Shown here piece by piece: positions 11,657 through 64,000 of a DNA stretch of 64,000 nt. Origin of the DNA: a virus (taxonomy: Duplodnaviria; Caudoviricetes). Numbering within the stretch: position 1 is the stretch's first letter; every line of letters starts with the position of its first letter. The stretch is from positions 152,576 through 216,575 of IMG/VR virus record IMGVR_UViG_3300027734_003164, one strand, 5' to 3'. The notes beneath the pieces are model-generated. The model saw nothing but the letters and a program-made list of their open reading frames with translations. It was not told the origin of the DNA and searched no databases. The position numbers and the translations under genes are program-made.

Positions 11657-12113
11657 TTCATTATACGATAGAAAGGCGGTTGTGCCCGATACATTGTTAA
11701 AACATTTAGAACAATGTTTTAGTTCGACAGATGGTGACGAAGGAACTGAAGGGTATAATAGAAATAAAGAATTGCGTGAAAAAAAAGTTGCAACCTACCA
11801 ACAAATAAAAAGAATAAAAAATTGGTTTGATGGTTACAACGGAAATAAAAAGGACGCTCCTTTTATTTTAAACGGTGGAGACAGAATGAAATCTTGGTGT
11901 GATGAGGTTTTAAAAACTTGGAGAAACAGTGTCGAGGGTGGAAAAAAAGTTAAAAGTGATACGGGAATGCAAAACCAGTTTAACGACACTCATGAAAAAA
12001 ATGGCATTAATTTAATACCAAGTAAAAGACATGAAAAGGGGGGAAATAAATTTGATACGTCAATAAAAGAAGAAGTTAAAAAAATAAACTATTTAATTAA
12101 AAAAATATTGTAA
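11649..12113 (+). CDS. Hypothetical protein
   Basis: 154-aa ORF overlapping its neighbours in an operon. Confidence 0.7.
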   Translation: MNSSLYDRKAVVPDTLLKHLEQCFSSTDGDEGTEGYNRNKELREKKVATYQQIKRIKNWFDGYNGNKKDAPFILNGGDRMKSWCDEVLKTWRNSVEGGKKVKSDTGMQNQFNDTHEKNGINLIPSKRHEKGGNKFDTSIKEEVKKINYLIKKIL

Positions 12114-58790: not shown

Positions 58791-59153
58791 TTATTTGAGA
58801 GAATTAATCTTATCACGATATTGTATCGCCCTTTCAAAGTCTTGGTTTCGAATACATTCGCCCAACTTAAACTTTAACTTTGATAGCTCTTCTTTGTTCT
58901 TTTCTAACTTTTTAATTTCATCTCTTAAATTTACTGCTTCTTCAAAATTTTCTTCTTTAATTGCCAAGCTTAATTTTTCTTTCAATACATATAATTCATC
59001 TGACGGACTTGTATTGTTAAAATTTCTTGTCATATAAGACATAGAATACAAACCATCTGGCGAACTATAAGTATTTTTAGTCCAGTTTTTATCATCAAAT
59101 GATGAAGAAAAAAATTCATTAAATAATTTATCAAATTCGTTCCAATTAAACAT
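58791..59153 (-). CDS. Double UVR (UvrB/C coiled-coil) motif protein
   Basis: LKEKLSLAIKEENFEEAVNLRDEI and LKFKLGECIRNQDFERAIQYRDKI. Confidence 0.85.
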   Translation of the reverse strand: MFNWNEFDKLFNEFFSSSFDDKNWTKNTYSSPDGLYSMSYMTRNFNNTSPSDELYVLKEKLSLAIKEENFEEAVNLRDEIKKLEKNKEELSKLKFKLGECIRNQDFERAIQYRDKINSLK

Positions 59154-59322: not shown

Positions 59323-61359
59323 ATGATTGAATCAGCAGACAACAACGAAAAAGACAAAGGAAAAAAAACTGAAACCGCGGGTAAAACACCCGTGTTGGAT
59401 AATTTTTCAAGAGACTTAATAAAAGCCGCGGAAGAGGGTAAGTTGGACCCTATTATTGGAAGAGAACAAGAAATTAATAGGATTGCACAAATTCTATCAA
59501 GAAGGAAAAAAAATAACCCAATTATTATTGGTGAACCAGGTTGTGGAAAAACTGCAATTGTAGAAGGATTGGCCAAAAAAATATTTGAGGGTGATTGTCC
59601 TCAGAATTTAGTTAGTAAAAGAATAGTTTCTTTAGATTTAAATTCTGTGGTTGCAGGAACAAAGTATAGAGGTCAGTTTGAAGAAAGAATGAAAGTTATA
59701 ATTGAAGAATTATATGCAAATCCTGACATAATTATTTTTATAGATGAAATCCATACTATGATTGGTGCTGGAAACGCATCGGGTTCCATGGATGCGTCAA
59801 ATATATTTAAACCCGCATTGTCAAGAGGAGAAATTCAATGTATTGGGGCAACAACATTAGAAGAATATAGAAAAAATATTGAAAAAGATGGGGCACTTGA
59901 AAGAAGGTTTCAAAAAATTGTTGTAGACCCATCAACTAAAGAAGAAACTTTAGAAATACTAAAACAATCCAAAGACCGTTACGAAAAACACCATAAAGTT
60001 AGATATAGTGAAGATATTTTAAAACTATGTGTTGAATTGGCCGATAGATATATTACCGACAGAGAATTTCCCGACAAGGCGTTTGATATACTTGATGAGG
60101 TTGGGGCAAGAAGTCAGGTGGAAATCAAATTACCTGAATCTATTGAAAAATTAAAAAAAGAAGCTCAAGAAATAAAAGAACAAAAAATAGAAGTTATTAA
60201 TAAACAAAAGTATGAAGAGGCTGCAAATTTAAGAGATAGAGAAAGAAAAGTTTTATCAGAACTTCAAAAAGAAAAGGAAGATTTTGAAAAAAACAGAGAC
60301 CTTTACCGAAAAGAAGTTACAGAAGAAATTGTTTATGATGTTACTTCTTTGATGACAAAAATTCCTATTAATAAAATTACCACCGATGAATCAATTCAAT
60401 TAGCATCATTAAATGAAGTATTAAATACAAGAGTAATTGGTCAAAATGAAGCGGTTTCCAAAATTGCAAGAGCAATACAAAGAAATAAAGTTGGTTTAAA
60501 TGACCCAAAAAAACCAATATTTAGTGGATTATTAATTGGTAATTCAGGTGTTGGTAAAACTGAATTGGCAAAACAGTTGGCAAAACATATGTTTAATAGT
60601 GAAGACGCACTTATTAGATTGGATATGAGTGAATTTTCAGATAAAATAGCAACATCAAAATTAACAGGGACATCACCAGGATATGTTGGGTATGAAGACG
60701 GTTCACCATTTTTGAACAAAATTAAAAACAAACCTTATTCTGTTATTTTATTGGATGAAATAGAAAAGGCTCACCCAGAAATTTTTAATGTATTTTTACA
60801 AATGTTAGATGAAGGGTTTTTAACAGATGGTCACGGTAGAAAAATTAACTTTAAAAATTGTATTATTCTTATGACATCAAATGTTGGAACAAGAGTGGTT
60901 CAACAATTTGGTACAGGTGTTGGGTTCTCAACATCACATAAAGAAGAAACAAAAGATGAAGAAATAAAATCTTTATTGGAAAAAGAACTTTTCAAAAAGT
61001 TTGCACCTGAGTTTATCAACAGATTTGATGATATTGTATACTTTAAAGACTTGAATGACAATGATTTGATGAAAATTTTGAATTTAGAACTTGAAAAATT
61101 ATATACAAGAGTTTCTAACCTTGAATTTAATGTTGAAGTTGATGAATCACTAAAAAATCACTTAATTAAAGTGGGTACTGATACTAGATTTGGAGCTCGT
61201 ATTTTGAAAAGAACGGTTCAAAAGTGGGTAGATGATGCAATTACGGAAAAAATACTTTCAGACAAACCAGAAAAAAACTCCACATTCTTACTGTCGTATG
61301 ATGAAAAAAATAATAAAACAGAAGTTAAAATAAAAAAACCAACAAAACGAAAGAAATAA
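59323..61359 (+). CDS. clpC: ClpC-type AAA+ unfoldase lacking the N-terminal domain
   Basis: Walker A GEPGCGKT and GNSGVGKT, Walker B FIDEIH and LLDEIEK, pore loops KYRG and GYVG, UVR middle domain, ClpP-docking VGF loop. Confidence 0.92.
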   Translation: MIESADNNEKDKGKKTETAGKTPVLDNFSRDLIKAAEEGKLDPIIGREQEINRIAQILSRRKKNNPIIIGEPGCGKTAIVEGLAKKIFEGDCPQNLVSKRIVSLDLNSVVAGTKYRGQFEERMKVIIEELYANPDIIIFIDEIHTMIGAGNASGSMDASNIFKPALSRGEIQCIGATTLEEYRKNIEKDGALERRFQKIVVDPSTKEETLEILKQSKDRYEKHHKVRYSEDILKLCVELADRYITDREFPDKAFDILDEVGARSQVEIKLPESIEKLKKEAQEIKEQKIEVINKQKYEEAANLRDRERKVLSELQKEKEDFEKNRDLYRKEVTEEIVYDVTSLMTKIPINKITTDESIQLASLNEVLNTRVIGQNEAVSKIARAIQRNKVGLNDPKKPIFSGLLIGNSGVGKTELAKQLAKHMFNSEDALIRLDMSEFSDKIATSKLTGTSPGYVGYEDGSPFLNKIKNKPYSVILLDEIEKAHPEIFNVFLQMLDEGFLTDGHGRKINFKNCIILMTSNVGTRVVQQFGTGVGFSTSHKEETKDEEIKSLLEKELFKKFAPEFINRFDDIVYFKDLNDNDLMKILNLELEKLYTRVSNLEFNVEVDESLKNHLIKVGTDTRFGARILKRTVQKWVDDAITEKILSDKPEKNSTFLLSYDEKNNKTEVKIKKPTKRKK

Positions 61360-61405: not shown

Positions 61406-62467
61406 ATGAACCTACAAAAATTCAAAGAACTCCTTTCAGTACCATCGAAAACATATCAAGAAGAAGATATGGTAGAACATATTTGTGATGAGTTGGAAAA
61501 AATTCATGGAGTTACGTTTTATCGTGACAATATGATGAACATATATGCAACAAAGGGGATATTAGAAGAAGGTGAATTTTATCCCATGTTTATTGCTCAC
61601 ACTGATACGGTTCACAACAAAATAGATAAGATTATTGTTAAAGAAGAAAAATTAAAACGACCACACACTTTTGGTAAAAATTTTGACGATACTCTTGTTG
61701 ACGTATTAAAAGCATACGACGTTAATAATTTACCAACAGGTATTGGGGGTGATGACAAATGTGGCATTTTTATTTGTTTAGAATTACTTAAACAATTAGA
61801 CAAAGTAAAAATTGGTTTATTTGTGAGTGAAGAAACAGGTTGTCACGGTTCATCAAAATGTGATGAAACTTTTTTGCAAGATGTAGGTTATATCACACAA
61901 TACGATGCTCCTGGCAACCATTTAATTACCGAGATTTGCTCAGGTGTTCGTTTATTTGAACGGGATAGTGAATTTTTTACAAAAACATCAAAAGTTATTA
62001 CCGAATCTTTTGGAAATGAAATGTTAGTTCAATCACACCCTTATACTGATATTTCACAGTTAAAGAAAAAAATTGATGTATCTTGCATCAACATGTCTTG
62101 TGGTTATTACAATATGCATTCACCACAAGAGTTCATTTCGATTGAAGATGTGAAATGTGCAATTGAAGCAGGAAAAAATATGGTTAAAGAGTTGGGTCAT
62201 AAAAAATATGAATATCAATATAAACCAATAGTTTATACACCAACAACAATCATGAACTCATTTGCGGAAGGGTTTGATGATGATTTAGATTTTTTTGAAG
62301 TACAAGAAATAGAAAGTCATCATCGTTTACAAACTATTGACGTATATGAGGAAAAAGACGGAATCACACTAACCGATGTTTATGATGATGGGTTTATGTT
62401 TATCCCTGATGAGGATTTAGAAAATTTGTATGAAATTATTAAAGAAAGATTAATTAAAAAATATTAA
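61406..62467 (+). CDS. Zn-dependent peptidase, M20/M28/M42 clan
   Basis: AHTDTV, GGDDKCG, SEETG, QYDAP, GYYNMHS ligand set. Confidence 0.85.
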   Translation: MNLQKFKELLSVPSKTYQEEDMVEHICDELEKIHGVTFYRDNMMNIYATKGILEEGEFYPMFIAHTDTVHNKIDKIIVKEEKLKRPHTFGKNFDDTLVDVLKAYDVNNLPTGIGGDDKCGIFICLELLKQLDKVKIGLFVSEETGCHGSSKCDETFLQDVGYITQYDAPGNHLITEICSGVRLFERDSEFFTKTSKVITESFGNEMLVQSHPYTDISQLKKKIDVSCINMSCGYYNMHSPQEFISIEDVKCAIEAGKNMVKELGHKKYEYQYKPIVYTPTTIMNSFAEGFDDDLDFFEVQEIESHHRLQTIDVYEEKDGITLTDVYDDGFMFIPDEDLENLYEIIKERLIKKY

Positions 62468-63609
62468 TCAACATAAGGTATTAAAGGTTCGGTATTCAAC
62501 ATATTTAAAATATATTTTAATGGTGCCGAACCTTTTTTGAGTGGATTCCACGAACTTCTTTTACGTATACCATAATTAACCATCAAACTATCTTTATCGA
62601 CATTTAATATTCTAATTTCATAGTCTCCTGGTATTTGTTTAAATGTGTTAAATCCAATTTTATCATTTATAATATTAATTATTTGAAAGTATTTTTTCGT
62701 TTTTTCTTTTCCACCTTCTTCAATCATATTTTCCAATTCTTCTTCTAATCCTTCCAAAACTCTTACACTTCTTTTATTAAATTCGTTATAAAAAACATCA
62801 GCATCCCAAGCCTCATATTGAATTTCATAATATTCAGGAACGTGTGTTCTAACTTCTTTTTCTATCGCCTTAAATAATATATCCATCAAGCAATCGTCAG
62901 GTGTTCCATATCTTACAAATAACATAATTGCATCCCCCCAATTTAAAAAATACTTCCAATAACAATTACTTGATTGGTTTTCGATTCCAACAACAGATAA
63001 ACAATTACAATATATATCATCAATATATTTAGGTACTGCTGCATCTGTTGCCATTTCACTTGCGTATGCATACGCCTCAATTAAATCATCTTTTGTTCTA
63101 TTACTTACAGATTCAATAAAGTCTAATATCTTTTCTGACTCTTTACCTTGTTTCCATTTGATTTGGTCATTAACCACTTCAAATTCTTTTAATAAGTTTG
63201 GTTGATATATTTTTAATATGTTATATAAAACTTTTAATGATTCACCCTTCAAATTTTCTAACACATATCCTTCGTCCCAATCTTCACTAGCTCTATCCCA
63301 ATAATCCCATTCCCATGAACCTCTACGCATAGAATCTAAGTATCCTGCTTCATACCAACCGTCACTACCTTCATCACCATAAGTTTCTTTGAAAAAAAAT
63401 CTTAAATAGTCTTCTAATCCTTCATGGAAAGTAAAAGTTATACCATCATAACTTACTTCATAAAAGTCTGAATAATCTTCACCATCACATTCATCAAAAT
63501 CAGTATAATAAGGGTCAATCTTTTTTTTGTTAATAGCAAGAATTTTTTGATAGTCAGTTAATTCAACATCATCTTCCTCTTCTTCAAAAATTTTTGAAAA
63601 TTTATTCAT
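62464..63609 (-). CDS. Acidic hypothetical late protein
   Basis: 381-aa ORF; late motif 5 nt upstream; N-terminal KIFE followed by an acidic run. Confidence 0.7.
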   Translation of the reverse strand: MNKFSKIFEEEEDDVELTDYQKILAINKKKIDPYYTDFDECDGEDYSDFYEVSYDGITFTFHEGLEDYLRFFFKETYGDEGSDGWYEAGYLDSMRRGSWEWDYWDRASEDWDEGYVLENLKGESLKVLYNILKIYQPNLLKEFEVVNDQIKWKQGKESEKILDFIESVSNRTKDDLIEAYAYASEMATDAAVPKYIDDIYCNCLSVVGIENQSSNCYWKYFLNWGDAIMLFVRYGTPDDCLMDILFKAIEKEVRTHVPEYYEIQYEAWDADVFYNEFNKRSVRVLEGLEEELENMIEEGGKEKTKKYFQIINIINDKIGFNTFKQIPGDYEIRILNVDKDSLMVNYGIRKRSSWNPLKKGSAPLKYILNMLNTEPLIPYVD

Positions 63610-63624
63610 ATATTTATAAATATA

Positions 63625-63655
63625 TTGTGAAGTACAAATATTTGTATTATATTTG
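63625..63655 (+). promoter_or_regulatory. Bacteroidota sigma70 promoter for tmRNA
   Basis: TTG (63625-63627) - 20 nt - TATATTTG (63648-63655). Confidence 0.75.
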
Positions 63656-63661
63656 TTTTAT

Positions 63662-63673
63662 AGTTCTTTGAAA
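63662..63673 (+). promoter_or_regulatory. boxA antitermination element
   Basis: AGTTCTTTGAAA directly downstream of the promoter and upstream of the tmRNA, matching the rRNA-operon boxA of many bacteria. Confidence 0.65.
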
Positions 63674-63692: not shown

Positions 63693-64000
63693 GGGCCTAT
63701 ATTGGAATTGACGGGCGTTGGTTGAATAAAAGAAGCATGTCGGGACTGAATTAATCTCGTTAAAAACTGATTCAAAAAACAACTGGCAATGTGCTAAACA
63801 ACCTTGAGACTTTGGGACTTATCTCAACTCAAGAAGTTACTGTAGCTTAATTAAGATACGGAAACGGGGGGTCGGCAGACATATAACCTAGCAACAGAAG
63901 TCGTAGTTGTGGTGGATTACTATTGAACCCTAAATCGAATGGTAACCATTGGTTGTTGATTTACGATGGTGAAGAACAAATCAACTATTTTGGAATATTA
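63693..64000 (+). ncRNA. ssrA: tmRNA (3' end beyond the window)
   Basis: 5' GGGCCTA..TTGGAATTGACGGG; conserved GCATGTCGGG; pseudoknot PK1 (CGGGA/TCTCG, TGAATTA/TGATTCA); resume context ACAACT-GGC; tag ORF 63785-63850. Confidence 0.92.

What the first reader, a model, noticed from the sequence alone, without database searches (positions are those of the whole stretch)
63785..63850. tmRNA encodes a long, non-canonical tag (A)GNVLNNLETLGLISTQEVTVA
Seen: 21 codons from the resume codon GGC to TAA, ending ...EVTVA. Established: typical tags are about 10 aa and end in (Y)ALAA/LAA, the ClpX degron; Bacteroidota tags are of the GENNYALAA type. Inference: the extra amphipathic segment (VLNNLETLGLI) and changed terminus could redirect tagged proteins to another protease such as the neighbouring ClpC, or rescue ribosomes while sparing products from host ClpXP.
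Basis: partly seen in the sequence, partly recalled or inferred. Interest (0 to 1): 0.75.

Follow-up and report, generated by a model that had tools for sequence, protein, structure and literature searches.

The report
Jumbo-phage tmRNA with long private tag
A freshwater giant phage carries its own ribosome-rescue RNA (tmRNA) whose 21-codon tag is twice as long as, and ends differently from, the tags of its likely Bacteroidota hosts, and the tag is conserved as a peptide in well over 100 related phage contigs, so it probably marks proteins for a phage-specific fate that has not yet been tested.

Summary
Window 63693-64000 is the first 308 nt of a one-piece tmRNA (Rfam RF00023, E 7.7e-11), cut by the window end. 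A copy identical at 307 of 308 positions (L002) is full length and scores 75.7 bits against a cut-off of 47. It has a G3:U70 pair, discriminator A and an encoded CCA. The covariance model puts its resume codon on GGC 63785 and its stop on TAA 63848-63850.

The 21-codon frame is open in every related IMG/VR phage contig in which it could be read (107 and 120 in two scans). It evolves like a coding sequence, and no other frame gives a canonical tag.

Tags read from 79 sampled Bacteroidota tmRNAs are 8-10 residues, with one probable 15-residue over-call, and all end in A[LM]AA. Neither refutation criterion is met.

The neighbouring ClpC is real. It lacks the N-domain, keeps a VGF ClpP-docking loop and is syntenic with the tmRNA throughout the clade. 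Four of five near-complete genomes lack clpP and smpB.

The idea that the tag is read by this ClpC, or that it spares products from host ClpXP, remains untested inference. The "amphipathic" description is not supported.

Phage tmRNAs and long alternative tags are known, so this is a new variant of a known kind. First readers of this scan noted similar tags in at least 12 other genomes.

The parts
63648..63655 (+). TATATTTG, a Bacteroidota-type -7 promoter box (TAnnTTTG) 38 nt upstream of the mature tmRNA 5' end
   Evidence: A TAnnTTTG motif lies within 70 nt upstream of the tmRNA in 77 of 86 distinct upstream regions of relatives, against about 0.07 expected per 70 nt. The promoter consensus itself is established knowledge and was not tested here.
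63693..64000 (+). tmRNA (ssrA), first 308 nt of about 388; the last ~80 nt (3' strand of helix 2, T-arm, acceptor 3' strand, CCA) lie beyond the window end
   Evidence: RF00023 at E 7.7e-11, truncated at the 3' end. It matches the full-length L002 copy at 307/308 positions. Among 24 diverse relatives, 23 of 51 consensus pairs keep pairing through changes on both sides.
63693..63699 (+). 5' strand of the acceptor stem (GGGCCTA); G3 forms the G3:U70 alanine identity pair with the 3' strand seen in L002
   Evidence: Pairs are GC, GC, GU, CG, CG, TA, AT in L002/L005/L007 and GC, GC, GU, TA, CG, CG, GC in L003/L006/L008/L009. G3:U is kept and pairs 4, 6 and 7 show compensatory changes. Discriminator A and CCA are encoded.
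63785..63787 (+). resume codon GGC (Gly)
   Evidence: It aligns with the model's resume codon. Peptide conservation starts exactly here, while the three upstream triplets vary freely. The context ...aacaact|GGC AAT resembles Bacteroidota tmRNAs (...aacaact|GGC GAG...aaat|GGC AAT).
63785..63847 (+). tag reading frame, 21 codons: GNVLNNLETLGLISTQEVTVA (22 residues are added once the Ala carried by the tmRNA is counted)
   Evidence: the length never varies, and the family pattern is G[ND][VL]L[NSDEA][KN][ML][ES][TVA][LIV]G[LF][LIV][RSA][GTE][SQE][EQD]V[TSA]V[AS].
63848..63850 (+). stop codon TAA in the loop of helix 5
   Evidence: It aligns with the model's UAA. Relatives use TAA, TAG or TGA at this place.
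63836..63865 (+). helix 5: GTTACTGTA (codons 18-20) pairs with TACGGAAAC
   Evidence: RNAalifold pairs at columns 147-154/169-176. Val-18 GTT goes with a downstream AAC and GTA with TAC, a compensatory change that keeps both the helix and the Val.
59323..61359 (+). phage ClpC-type double AAA+ unfoldase, 678 aa, without the N-terminal domain
   Evidence: Pfam AAA, AAA_lid_9, AAA_2 and ClpB_D2-small. E 1e-196 to S. aureus ClpC, aligned to its residues 149-805. Both Walker A and B motifs, KYRG and GYVG pore loops, and VGF at residue 533 are present. It lies upstream of the tmRNA in 83 of 125 loci, at identities down to 40%.
61406..62467 (+). M20/M42-clan metallopeptidase-like protein, 353 aa
   Evidence: Pfam Peptidase_M42 at 23.7 bits and M20 at 23.5 bits, both borderline. 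PHROG 4191 'peptidase' at E 1e-35. Syntenic in 101 loci.
62464..63609 (-). orf381, a conserved protein of unknown function that lies directly and divergently next to the tmRNA
   Evidence: No Pfam, PHROG or NCBIfam hit. Syntenic in 60 loci. The model is confident (pLDDT 89.7), but no fold match stands out.
58791..59153 (-). 120-aa protein with two UVR motifs
   Evidence: Pfam UVR at E 2.8e-18, two stretches. A weak, sub-threshold match to the C-terminal part of McsA. Syntenic in 26 loci.

Best explanation
This is a working one-piece tmRNA gene of a ~275-305 kb freshwater jumbo phage that most likely infects Bacteroidota (Chitinophagales/Saprospirales type). What the sequences show: it has the alanine identity pair and an encoded CCA; it has a host-type promoter box; its helices co-vary; and its mRNA-like part encodes a 21-codon tag kept as a peptide across a large phage clade and unlike the 8-10-residue ...A[LM]AA tags of sampled Bacteroidota. 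What is inferred: host AlaRS charges it. It works with host SmpB and EF-Tu, since most related genomes lack smpB. It enters ribosomes stalled during infection, for example on mRNAs cut during host shut-off. It then adds Ala plus the 21 residues to the nascent chains. Selection acts on the whole peptide, so the tag is probably read by a specific partner and works as a phage-specific degradation or recognition signal. The favoured reader, with only modest odds, is the syntenic N-domain-less phage ClpC. Its VGF loop would let it dock on ClpP, which would be host ClpP in most clade members. The adjacent M20/M42-like peptidase would then trim the products to amino acids.
For: Identity as a tmRNA: 72-118 bits in full-length relatives; G3:U70, CCA, compensatory acceptor pairs; 23 of 51 pairs with double changes. 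Frame and peptide selection. Difference from the host type: tags read from 79 Bacteroidota tmRNAs, all ending A[LM]AA; the tag-end 18-mer occurs in no tmRNA among GTDB species representatives. Bacteroidota link: the nearest cellular ClpC homologues, 50-59% identical, are Chitinophagales, Saprospirales and Bacteroidales; TAnnTTTG box in 77 of 86 upstream regions; resume context. Dependence on the host: (clpP and smpB in only 1 of 5 near-complete genomes, while all 5 have the tmRNA). ClpC. Consistent with expression: contigs from four freshwater metatranscriptome studies lie only inside the tmRNA (11696-12074 of L002), at depths up to about 46-74.
Against: No result here shows that the tag binds anything or causes degradation. 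Synteny within one phage clade may simply reflect shared descent. The 635-642 kb phages with a 55%-identical ClpC have no tmRNA above threshold, so a phage ClpC does not need a tmRNA. The last four tag codons also form helix 5, so part of the conservation at the C-terminus is an RNA constraint. The host is inferred, not shown. The RNA evidence comes from assembled contigs of relatives, which cannot exclude DNA carry-over and cannot show RNA ends.
Confidence: 0.55

Rival explanations
1. The tag is a degron for a host protease other than the ClpX/LAA route (Lon, FtsH, host ClpC or a PDZ tail-specific protease), and the phage ClpC next door is unrelated to it. This would parallel Mycoplasma, where a long ssrA tag switched specificity to Lon.
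For: The tag is long and rich in Leu, Val, Ile and Met, with a non-LAA end. Four of five near-complete genomes have no clpP of their own. Phage ClpC occurs without a tmRNA in other huge phages. The Mycoplasma precedent is Gur and Sauer 2008, known to me and cited in PMC8403727; the paper itself is not held.
Against: The tag shows no sequence likeness to Mycoplasma tags. The ClpC-peptidase-tmRNA order is kept even where ClpC has diverged to 40% identity. Nothing here tests any protease.
Confidence: 0.25
2. The tag is not a degradation signal. The phage tmRNA mainly frees ribosomes, and the peptide has another role (for example sorting, sequestering or marking truncated chains), or it lets rescued products escape host ClpXP.
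For: The C-terminus departs from the LAA-type end that E. coli ClpX reads (established knowledge; the tag sequence is). Ribosome rescue alone would benefit a phage that destroys host mRNA.
Against: Escape alone would not demand a fixed 21-residue sequence, yet length and sequence are conserved in every contig read, with position 2 the most constrained codon position. No other role has any direct support.
Confidence: 0.12
3. The RNA acts as a decoy that ties up host SmpB or competes with host tmRNA, and the tag frame is irrelevant. Hudson et al. discussed this for the TLD-only ssrA of mycobacteriophage DS6A.
For: Most clade genomes lack smpB, so the phage RNA must compete for host SmpB. The DS6A precedent is in PMC4131195.
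Against: The full mRNA-like domain, resume context, stop-in-helix-5 layout and coding-type substitution pattern are all kept. A decoy would not need an open, length-invariant frame.
Confidence: 0.04
4. The frame is wrong or the gene is a decayed remnant, and the true tag is a short or canonical one in another frame.
For: ARAGORN does not call it. A GCA codon one base downstream opens a 3-codon frame (AMC).
Against: The covariance model fixes both the resume and stop positions on the 21-codon frame. Conservation begins at GGC. The shifted frames show 19% and 3% synonymous differences against 42%. No frame ends in [ALMVFI]AA in 24 diverse members.
Confidence: 0.02

Closest known systems
Bacterial tmRNA (ssrA, Rfam RF00023) of Bacteroidota
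   Same: One-piece architecture. tRNA-like domain with G3:U70 and CCA. Gly (GGC) resume codon in a similar context, with a tag that begins GN or GE. Stop codon in the loop of helix 5.
   Different: The tag is 21 codons rather than 8-10 and ends [EQD]V[TSA]V[AS] rather than A[LM]AA. The gene sits in a phage genome. Overall sequence similarity to the sampled bacterial tmRNAs is too weak to name a donor.
Known phage tmRNAs: Bxz1-type mycobacteriophages, Bacillus phage G, Melnitz-type marine myophages, huge phages of Al-Shayeb et al.
   Same: A phage-borne ssrA, mostly in large phages (PMC4131195, PMC7162821, PMC9004378). Phage G's reported tag AKLNITNNELQVA is also non-canonical and ends in -VA (PMC12484599).
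   Different: This clade has its own strictly conserved 21-codon tag and a conserved ClpC-peptidase-tmRNA gene order. Those surveys used ARAGORN, which misses it. I found no description of this tag in the searchable literature.
Mycoplasma/Mesoplasma long ssrA tags read by Lon (Gur and Sauer 2008)
   Same: A tag of more than 20 residues with a non-LAA end. It shows that tag and protease specificity can switch together.
   Different: There is no sequence similarity. The switch there is in a cell that lost ClpXP, whereas here a phage tag sits beside a host tag of the canonical type. Recognition by Lon is not tested here. The paper is not held, so this comparison rests on my own knowledge and on its citation in PMC8403727.
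ClpC-ClpP protease of Firmicutes and Actinobacteria, with MecA/McsB adaptors
   Same: The neighbour gene is a close ClpC homologue with both ATPase rings, pore loops, the M-domain region and a VGF ClpP loop. A small UVR-motif protein nearby weakly resembles the C-terminus of McsA.
   Different: It lacks the N-terminal domain that binds MecA and phospho-arginine substrates. No mecA or mcsB was seen. ClpP is missing from most clade genomes.

Membership tests
tmRNA (RF00023) | Covariance-model score at or above the gathering score (47 bits) | tested here: met
   The window fragment scores 31.2 bits because it is cut at the 3' end. The copy identical at 307/308 positions (L002) scores 75.7 bits over model positions 1-374. 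Relatives score 72-118 bits.
tmRNA (RF00023) | tRNA-like domain: the 5' and 3' ends pair in an acceptor stem with G3:U70, discriminator A, CCA, and a T-arm | tested here: met
   Shown in 7 full-length relatives, with compensatory changes, and in 24 relatives. The window holds only the 5' strand. In the window's subtype the T-loop is an unusual 8-nt AGUCGGAG; other subtypes have GTTCGA.
tmRNA (RF00023) | mRNA-like domain: an open frame after pseudoknot 1, with the stop in the loop of helix 5 | tested here: met
   alignment; coding signature, helix 5 covariation.
tmRNA (RF00023) | Pseudoknots PK1-PK4 | tested here: inconclusive
   Stems consistent with PK1 and PK4 co-vary. The PK2-PK3 region aligns to the model with low posterior probability and comes in alternative cassettes among relatives. 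The tools used do not model pseudoknots.
tmRNA (RF00023) | Works with SmpB in trans-translation | not testable with these tools
   smpB is present in 1 of 5 near-complete clade genomes and absent from the window. Use of host SmpB is inferred.
ClpX-type ssrA degron | C-terminal ...(A/L/M/V)AA-COOH | tested here: not met
   The tag ends VTVA. The family range is [EQD]V[TSA]V[AS]. No alternative frame gives such an end.
Mycoplasma-type Lon-directed long tag | Sequence relationship to Mycoplasma tags, and recognition by Lon | not testable with these tools
   Only the length (over 20 residues) is shared. No Mycoplasma tag sequence was available from a tool for comparison, and the primary paper is not held.
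ClpC (Hsp100/Clp class I unfoldase) | Two AAA+ rings with Walker A and B motifs and pore loops, a short M-domain, and a ClpP-docking (I/L/V)G(F/L) loop | tested here: met
   (GEPGCGKT and GNSGVGKT, KYRG, GYVG, VGF at 533).
ClpC (Hsp100/Clp class I unfoldase) | N-terminal Clp_N repeat domain (adaptor and phospho-arginine binding) | tested here: not met
   The protein starts at the position that aligns with ClpC residue ~149. Clp_N is not among the 25 Pfam families displayed out of 38 hits.

The most novel reading that the evidence does not exclude
The clade runs a private quality-control branch. Its tmRNA writes an orthogonal degron that host ClpXP ignores and that the N-domain-less phage ClpC reads directly. 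That ClpC docks on host ClpP, and the adjacent peptidase finishes the job. Chains stalled on host mRNAs cut during take-over would thus be turned into amino acids under phage control, giving a natural orthogonal tag/unfoldase pair.
Probability: 0.25. Interest if true: 0.8.

Novelty: new variant of a known kind. Interest (0 to 1): 0.55.

Why it matters
Phage-borne tmRNAs are usually listed as translation helpers, and their tags are rarely examined. In this case a whole clade of abundant freshwater jumbo phages keeps a tag that differs in length and in its end from the canonical tags of its likely host phylum, and selection acts on the peptide itself. That makes a concrete question testable: does a phage redirect the fate of rescued nascent chains, and through which protease? 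If the syntenic ClpC reads the tag, the pair would be a natural orthogonal degron/unfoldase system, comparable in use to the Mesoplasma Lon/ssrA pair. There is also a practical point. ARAGORN, used by Al-Shayeb et al. and by the Buchholz et al. phage-database survey (and, to my knowledge, by annotation pipelines such as Pharokka), misses this family completely, so such counts of phage tmRNAs are probably too low.

Tried and rejected
- ARAGORN on the window, on 8 relatives and at lowered thresholds gave no tmRNA, or only spurious 'permuted' calls. This is a tool limitation, not evidence against the gene.
- The window's own assembly is not held. The nearest record, G001, ends before the window does.
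- blastn of the fragment against GenBank phages gave no match.
- The genome-contig scan for the tag-end 18-mer gave four hits. All are chance matches in coding or intergenic DNA with no tmRNA.
- blastn of the phage tmRNA against 74 Bacteroidota tmRNAs gave similarity too weak to name a donor lineage.
- A helical amphipathicity test of the tag was not significant.
- A search for window ORFs that end in V[TSA]V[AS] found none.
- No clpP or smpB homologue was found in the 64-kb window. The rest of the genome could not be searched.
- orf381 gave no family hit and no atlas lead. Its model is confident, but Foldseek against PDB and AFDB clusters found nothing at E <= 0.001, and the best VIA-align score of Z 5.7 is to generic helical bundles, within the tool's stated noise range.
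- The Buchholz et al. supplementary tables list phages with tmRNAs but no tag peptides.
- Gur and Sauer 2008 is not held in the library.
- Complex prediction was not used, because the tag (21-22 residues) is below the 30-residue minimum for a chain. No binding test was therefore made.
- In the read-laying, the flanks of the tmRNA had no RNA-contig cover. For contigs of diverged relatives this absence carries no weight by itself.

Full report
**What is at the coordinates.** The stretch 63785-63850 reads GGC AAT GTG ... GTA GCT TAA, which is 21 sense codons and a stop. ARAGORN and Rfam at gathering level report nothing in the window. A permissive Rfam scan of the last 600 bases gives RF00023 (tmRNA) at 63693-64000, 31.2 bits, E 7.7e-11, matching model positions 1-264 of 374 and cut at the 3' end by the window. 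The window's own assembly is not held, and the nearest record ends even earlier.

An exact 22-mer from the 5' part found eight IMG/VR contigs. Seven of them carry a full-length tmRNA at 72-100 bits, against a gathering score of 47. L002:11697-12084 matches the window's 308 nt at 307 positions and supplies the missing 80 nt.

**Is it a real tmRNA?** In the full-length relatives the 5' and 3' ends pair in a 7-bp acceptor stem. G1-C and G2-C are kept, the G3:U70 wobble is kept in all of them, and pairs 4, 6 and 7 show compensatory changes. A discriminator A and an encoded CCA follow. On 24 diverse family members (pairwise identity down to 53%), RNAalifold finds 51 consensus pairs. In 23 of these, at least one sequence keeps the pair through changes on both sides. 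These pairs include the acceptor stem, the long helix 2, a PK1 stem, helix 5 and the T-arm. The RNA is therefore under structural selection. All five near-complete (93-100%) genomes of 274-304 kb carry exactly one copy, at 103-118 bits.

**Is the frame right?** The covariance model aligns its resume codon to GGC 63785 and its stop, in the loop of helix 5, to TAA 63848. A 31-nt insertion and a 1-nt deletion lie between them, a net gain of ten codons. I ran three further scans of viral contigs.
- The 18-mer that encodes EVTVA-stop gave 110 contigs.
- The 18-mer around the resume codon gave 87.

In every case where the frame could be read, the tag is exactly 21 codons. Conservation begins at the Gly codon, while the three triplets before it vary freely (KTT, FTD, FIY, VAN and others). 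Mean entropy by codon position is 0.58, 0.21 and 0.64. Of the differing codons, 42% are synonymous in this frame, against 19% and 3% in the shifted frames. The alternative GCA frame gives only AMC or AIC. No frame in 24 diverse members ends in [ALMVFI]AA.

The family pattern is G[ND][VL]L[NSDEA][KN][ML][ES][TVA][LIV]G[LF][LIV][RSA][GTE][SQE][EQD]V[TSA]V[AS]. There is one caveat. Codons 18-20 also form the 5' strand of helix 5, so the end of the tag is constrained at the RNA level too. The GTT/AAC to GTA/TAC double change keeps both the helix and the Val.

**Host and host tags.** The nearest cellular homologues of the neighbouring ClpC (50-59% identity) are Chitinophagales, Saprospirales and Bacteroidales. 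A TAnnTTTG box, the known Bacteroidota -7 promoter element, lies upstream of the tmRNA in 77 of 86 distinct upstream regions, against 0.07 expected per 70 nt. The resume context resembles that of Bacteroidota tmRNAs, which also resume on GGC.

The tmRNAs of five Chitinophagales/Saprospiraceae-type genomes encode GNTQFAMAA (twice), GNTQLAMAA, GNYDYALAA and GESNYAMAA. A phylum-wide sample found a tmRNA in 144 of 151 genomes. I read the tags of 69 of these. All are 8-10 residues except one 15-residue ARAGORN call, which is probably over-extended, and all end in A[LM]AA. The tag-end 18-mer occurs in no tmRNA among the GTDB species representatives; its four hits are chance matches. The host itself remains an inference.

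**Neighbours.** The 678-aa ORF at 59323-61359 is a true ClpC homologue (E 1e-196 to S. aureus ClpC). It aligns to ClpC residues 149-805, so the N-terminal adaptor-binding domain is missing. Both Walker A/B pairs, the KYRG and GYVG pore loops and a VGF tripeptide at the ClpP-docking loop are intact. A weak M20/M42-type peptidase follows, then the unknown orf381, then the tmRNA. A 120-aa protein with two UVR motifs lies before ClpC.

The ClpC-peptidase-orf381-tmRNA order holds in essentially all loci with enough flank. ClpC is found in 83 loci, always 3.1-5.7 kb upstream, at identities down to 40%. Only one of five near-complete genomes (G005) encodes ClpP and SmpB. The rest must use host SmpB, and host ClpP if Clp is involved at all. 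Two 635-642 kb phages with a 55%-identical ClpC have no tmRNA above threshold, so ClpC and the tmRNA are not obligatorily coupled.

**Expression.** The stretch occurs in freshwater metagenomes of many studies. Contigs from four metatranscriptome runs of four studies align only within 11696-12074 of L002, where the tmRNA is 11697-12084. Depths reach about 46-74, and the contigs are 90-99% identical to L002, so they come from relatives. This fits an abundant stable RNA, but it is weak evidence. Contigs cannot show RNA ends or exclude DNA.

**Mechanism.** What the evidence shows is an alanine-type tRNA-like domain, a complete mRNA-like domain, a host-type promoter box, selection on the peptide, and a tag unlike the host type. 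The rest is inferred: charging by host AlaRS, delivery with host SmpB, and tagging of chains stalled during infection. A fixed 21-residue sequence argues for a specific reader, and argues against mere escape from proteolysis.

The syntenic N-domain-less ClpC with a ClpP loop is the obvious candidate, and the adjacent peptidase fits an amino-acid recycling role of the kind Buchholz et al. proposed for a marine phage tmRNA (PMC9004378). Nothing here tests binding, however, and a host protease such as Lon is a serious rival, as in Mycoplasma. The tag's supposed amphipathic helix is not supported.

**Comparison with what is known.** Phage tmRNAs are known. Examples are Bxz1-type mycobacteriophages and phage G (PMC4131195), huge phages (PMC7162821), and 402 of 18,146 phage genomes in an ARAGORN-based survey (PMC9004378). 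Phage G's tag AKLNITNNELQVA is also non-canonical and ends in -VA (PMC12484599). Long tags read by another protease are known from Mycoplasma (Gur and Sauer 2008, cited in PMC8403727; not held).

Three things are new here. The tag is clade-specific and strictly conserved at 21 codons. It sits beside a canonical host-type tag. It keeps a conserved gene order with an N-domain-less ClpC. ARAGORN fails on the whole family, and ARAGORN was the tool used in those surveys. My literature searches found no description of this tag, although the library is limited to open-access papers. First readers of this scan noted the same kind of tmRNA in at least 12 other genomes.

**Verdict.** This is a new variant of a known kind and of moderate interest. 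Its value lies in a clear, testable hypothesis of a phage-private degron.

Noticed in passing
L003:3562-3968, L005:5232-5634, L006:5285-5654, L008:1399-1810, L009:11113-11519: A GOLLD RNA (RF02032, 264-321 bits) lies within about 0.3-1 kb of the tmRNA in five related contigs. It is not seen in the 2.1 kb that follow the tmRNA in L002, the window's closest relative.
   Followed up: no
window 63693-64000 and all related loci: ARAGORN does not detect this tmRNA family at default or relaxed thresholds, although Rfam's model scores it at 72-118 bits. ARAGORN-based counts of phage tmRNAs therefore miss it.
   Followed up: partly
window 62464-63609 (-): orf381 lies directly beside the tmRNA and is syntenic in about 60 loci. 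It gives a confident model (pLDDT 89.7, pTM 0.79) with invariant Cys, His, Trp and Tyr positions. It has no family hit and no convincing fold match.
   Followed up: yes
G005:C1:68265-68786 (L130) and G005:C1:138238-138636 (L131): One of five near-complete clade genomes encodes its own ClpP (159.9 bits) and SmpB (143.4 bits). The SmpB gene is about 7 kb from the tmRNA. The other four genomes lack both.
   Followed up: partly
alignment A4, columns about 215-340 (tmRNA PK2-PK3 region): The middle of the tmRNA comes in several unrelated-looking cassettes among relatives, including 27-40-nt insertions, while both ends and the tag are conserved. This looks like modular exchange within the RNA.
   Followed up: no
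L002:12050-12084 (the window's subtype, beyond the window end): The T-loop of this subtype is an 8-nt AGUCGGAG rather than the canonical GTTCGA-type 7-nt loop seen in other subtypes. Both subtypes keep G3:U70.
   Followed up: no
window 63661-63671 and the same place in most relatives: A second conserved motif, TAGTTCTTTGA, lies about 20-30 nt upstream of the mature tmRNA 5' end, downstream of the TAnnTTTG box. It could be a second promoter element or a processing signal.
   Followed up: no
window 58791-59153 (-): A small protein with two UVR motifs shows a weak, sub-threshold match to the C-terminal part of the ClpC-system regulator McsA (44 bits against a cut-off of 210).
   Followed up: partly
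L009:895-1010: This Rfam tRNA match (45.6 bits) spans 116 nt, which is longer than a normal tRNA, and ARAGORN did not call it. It may be an interrupted or intron-bearing tRNA.
   Followed up: no
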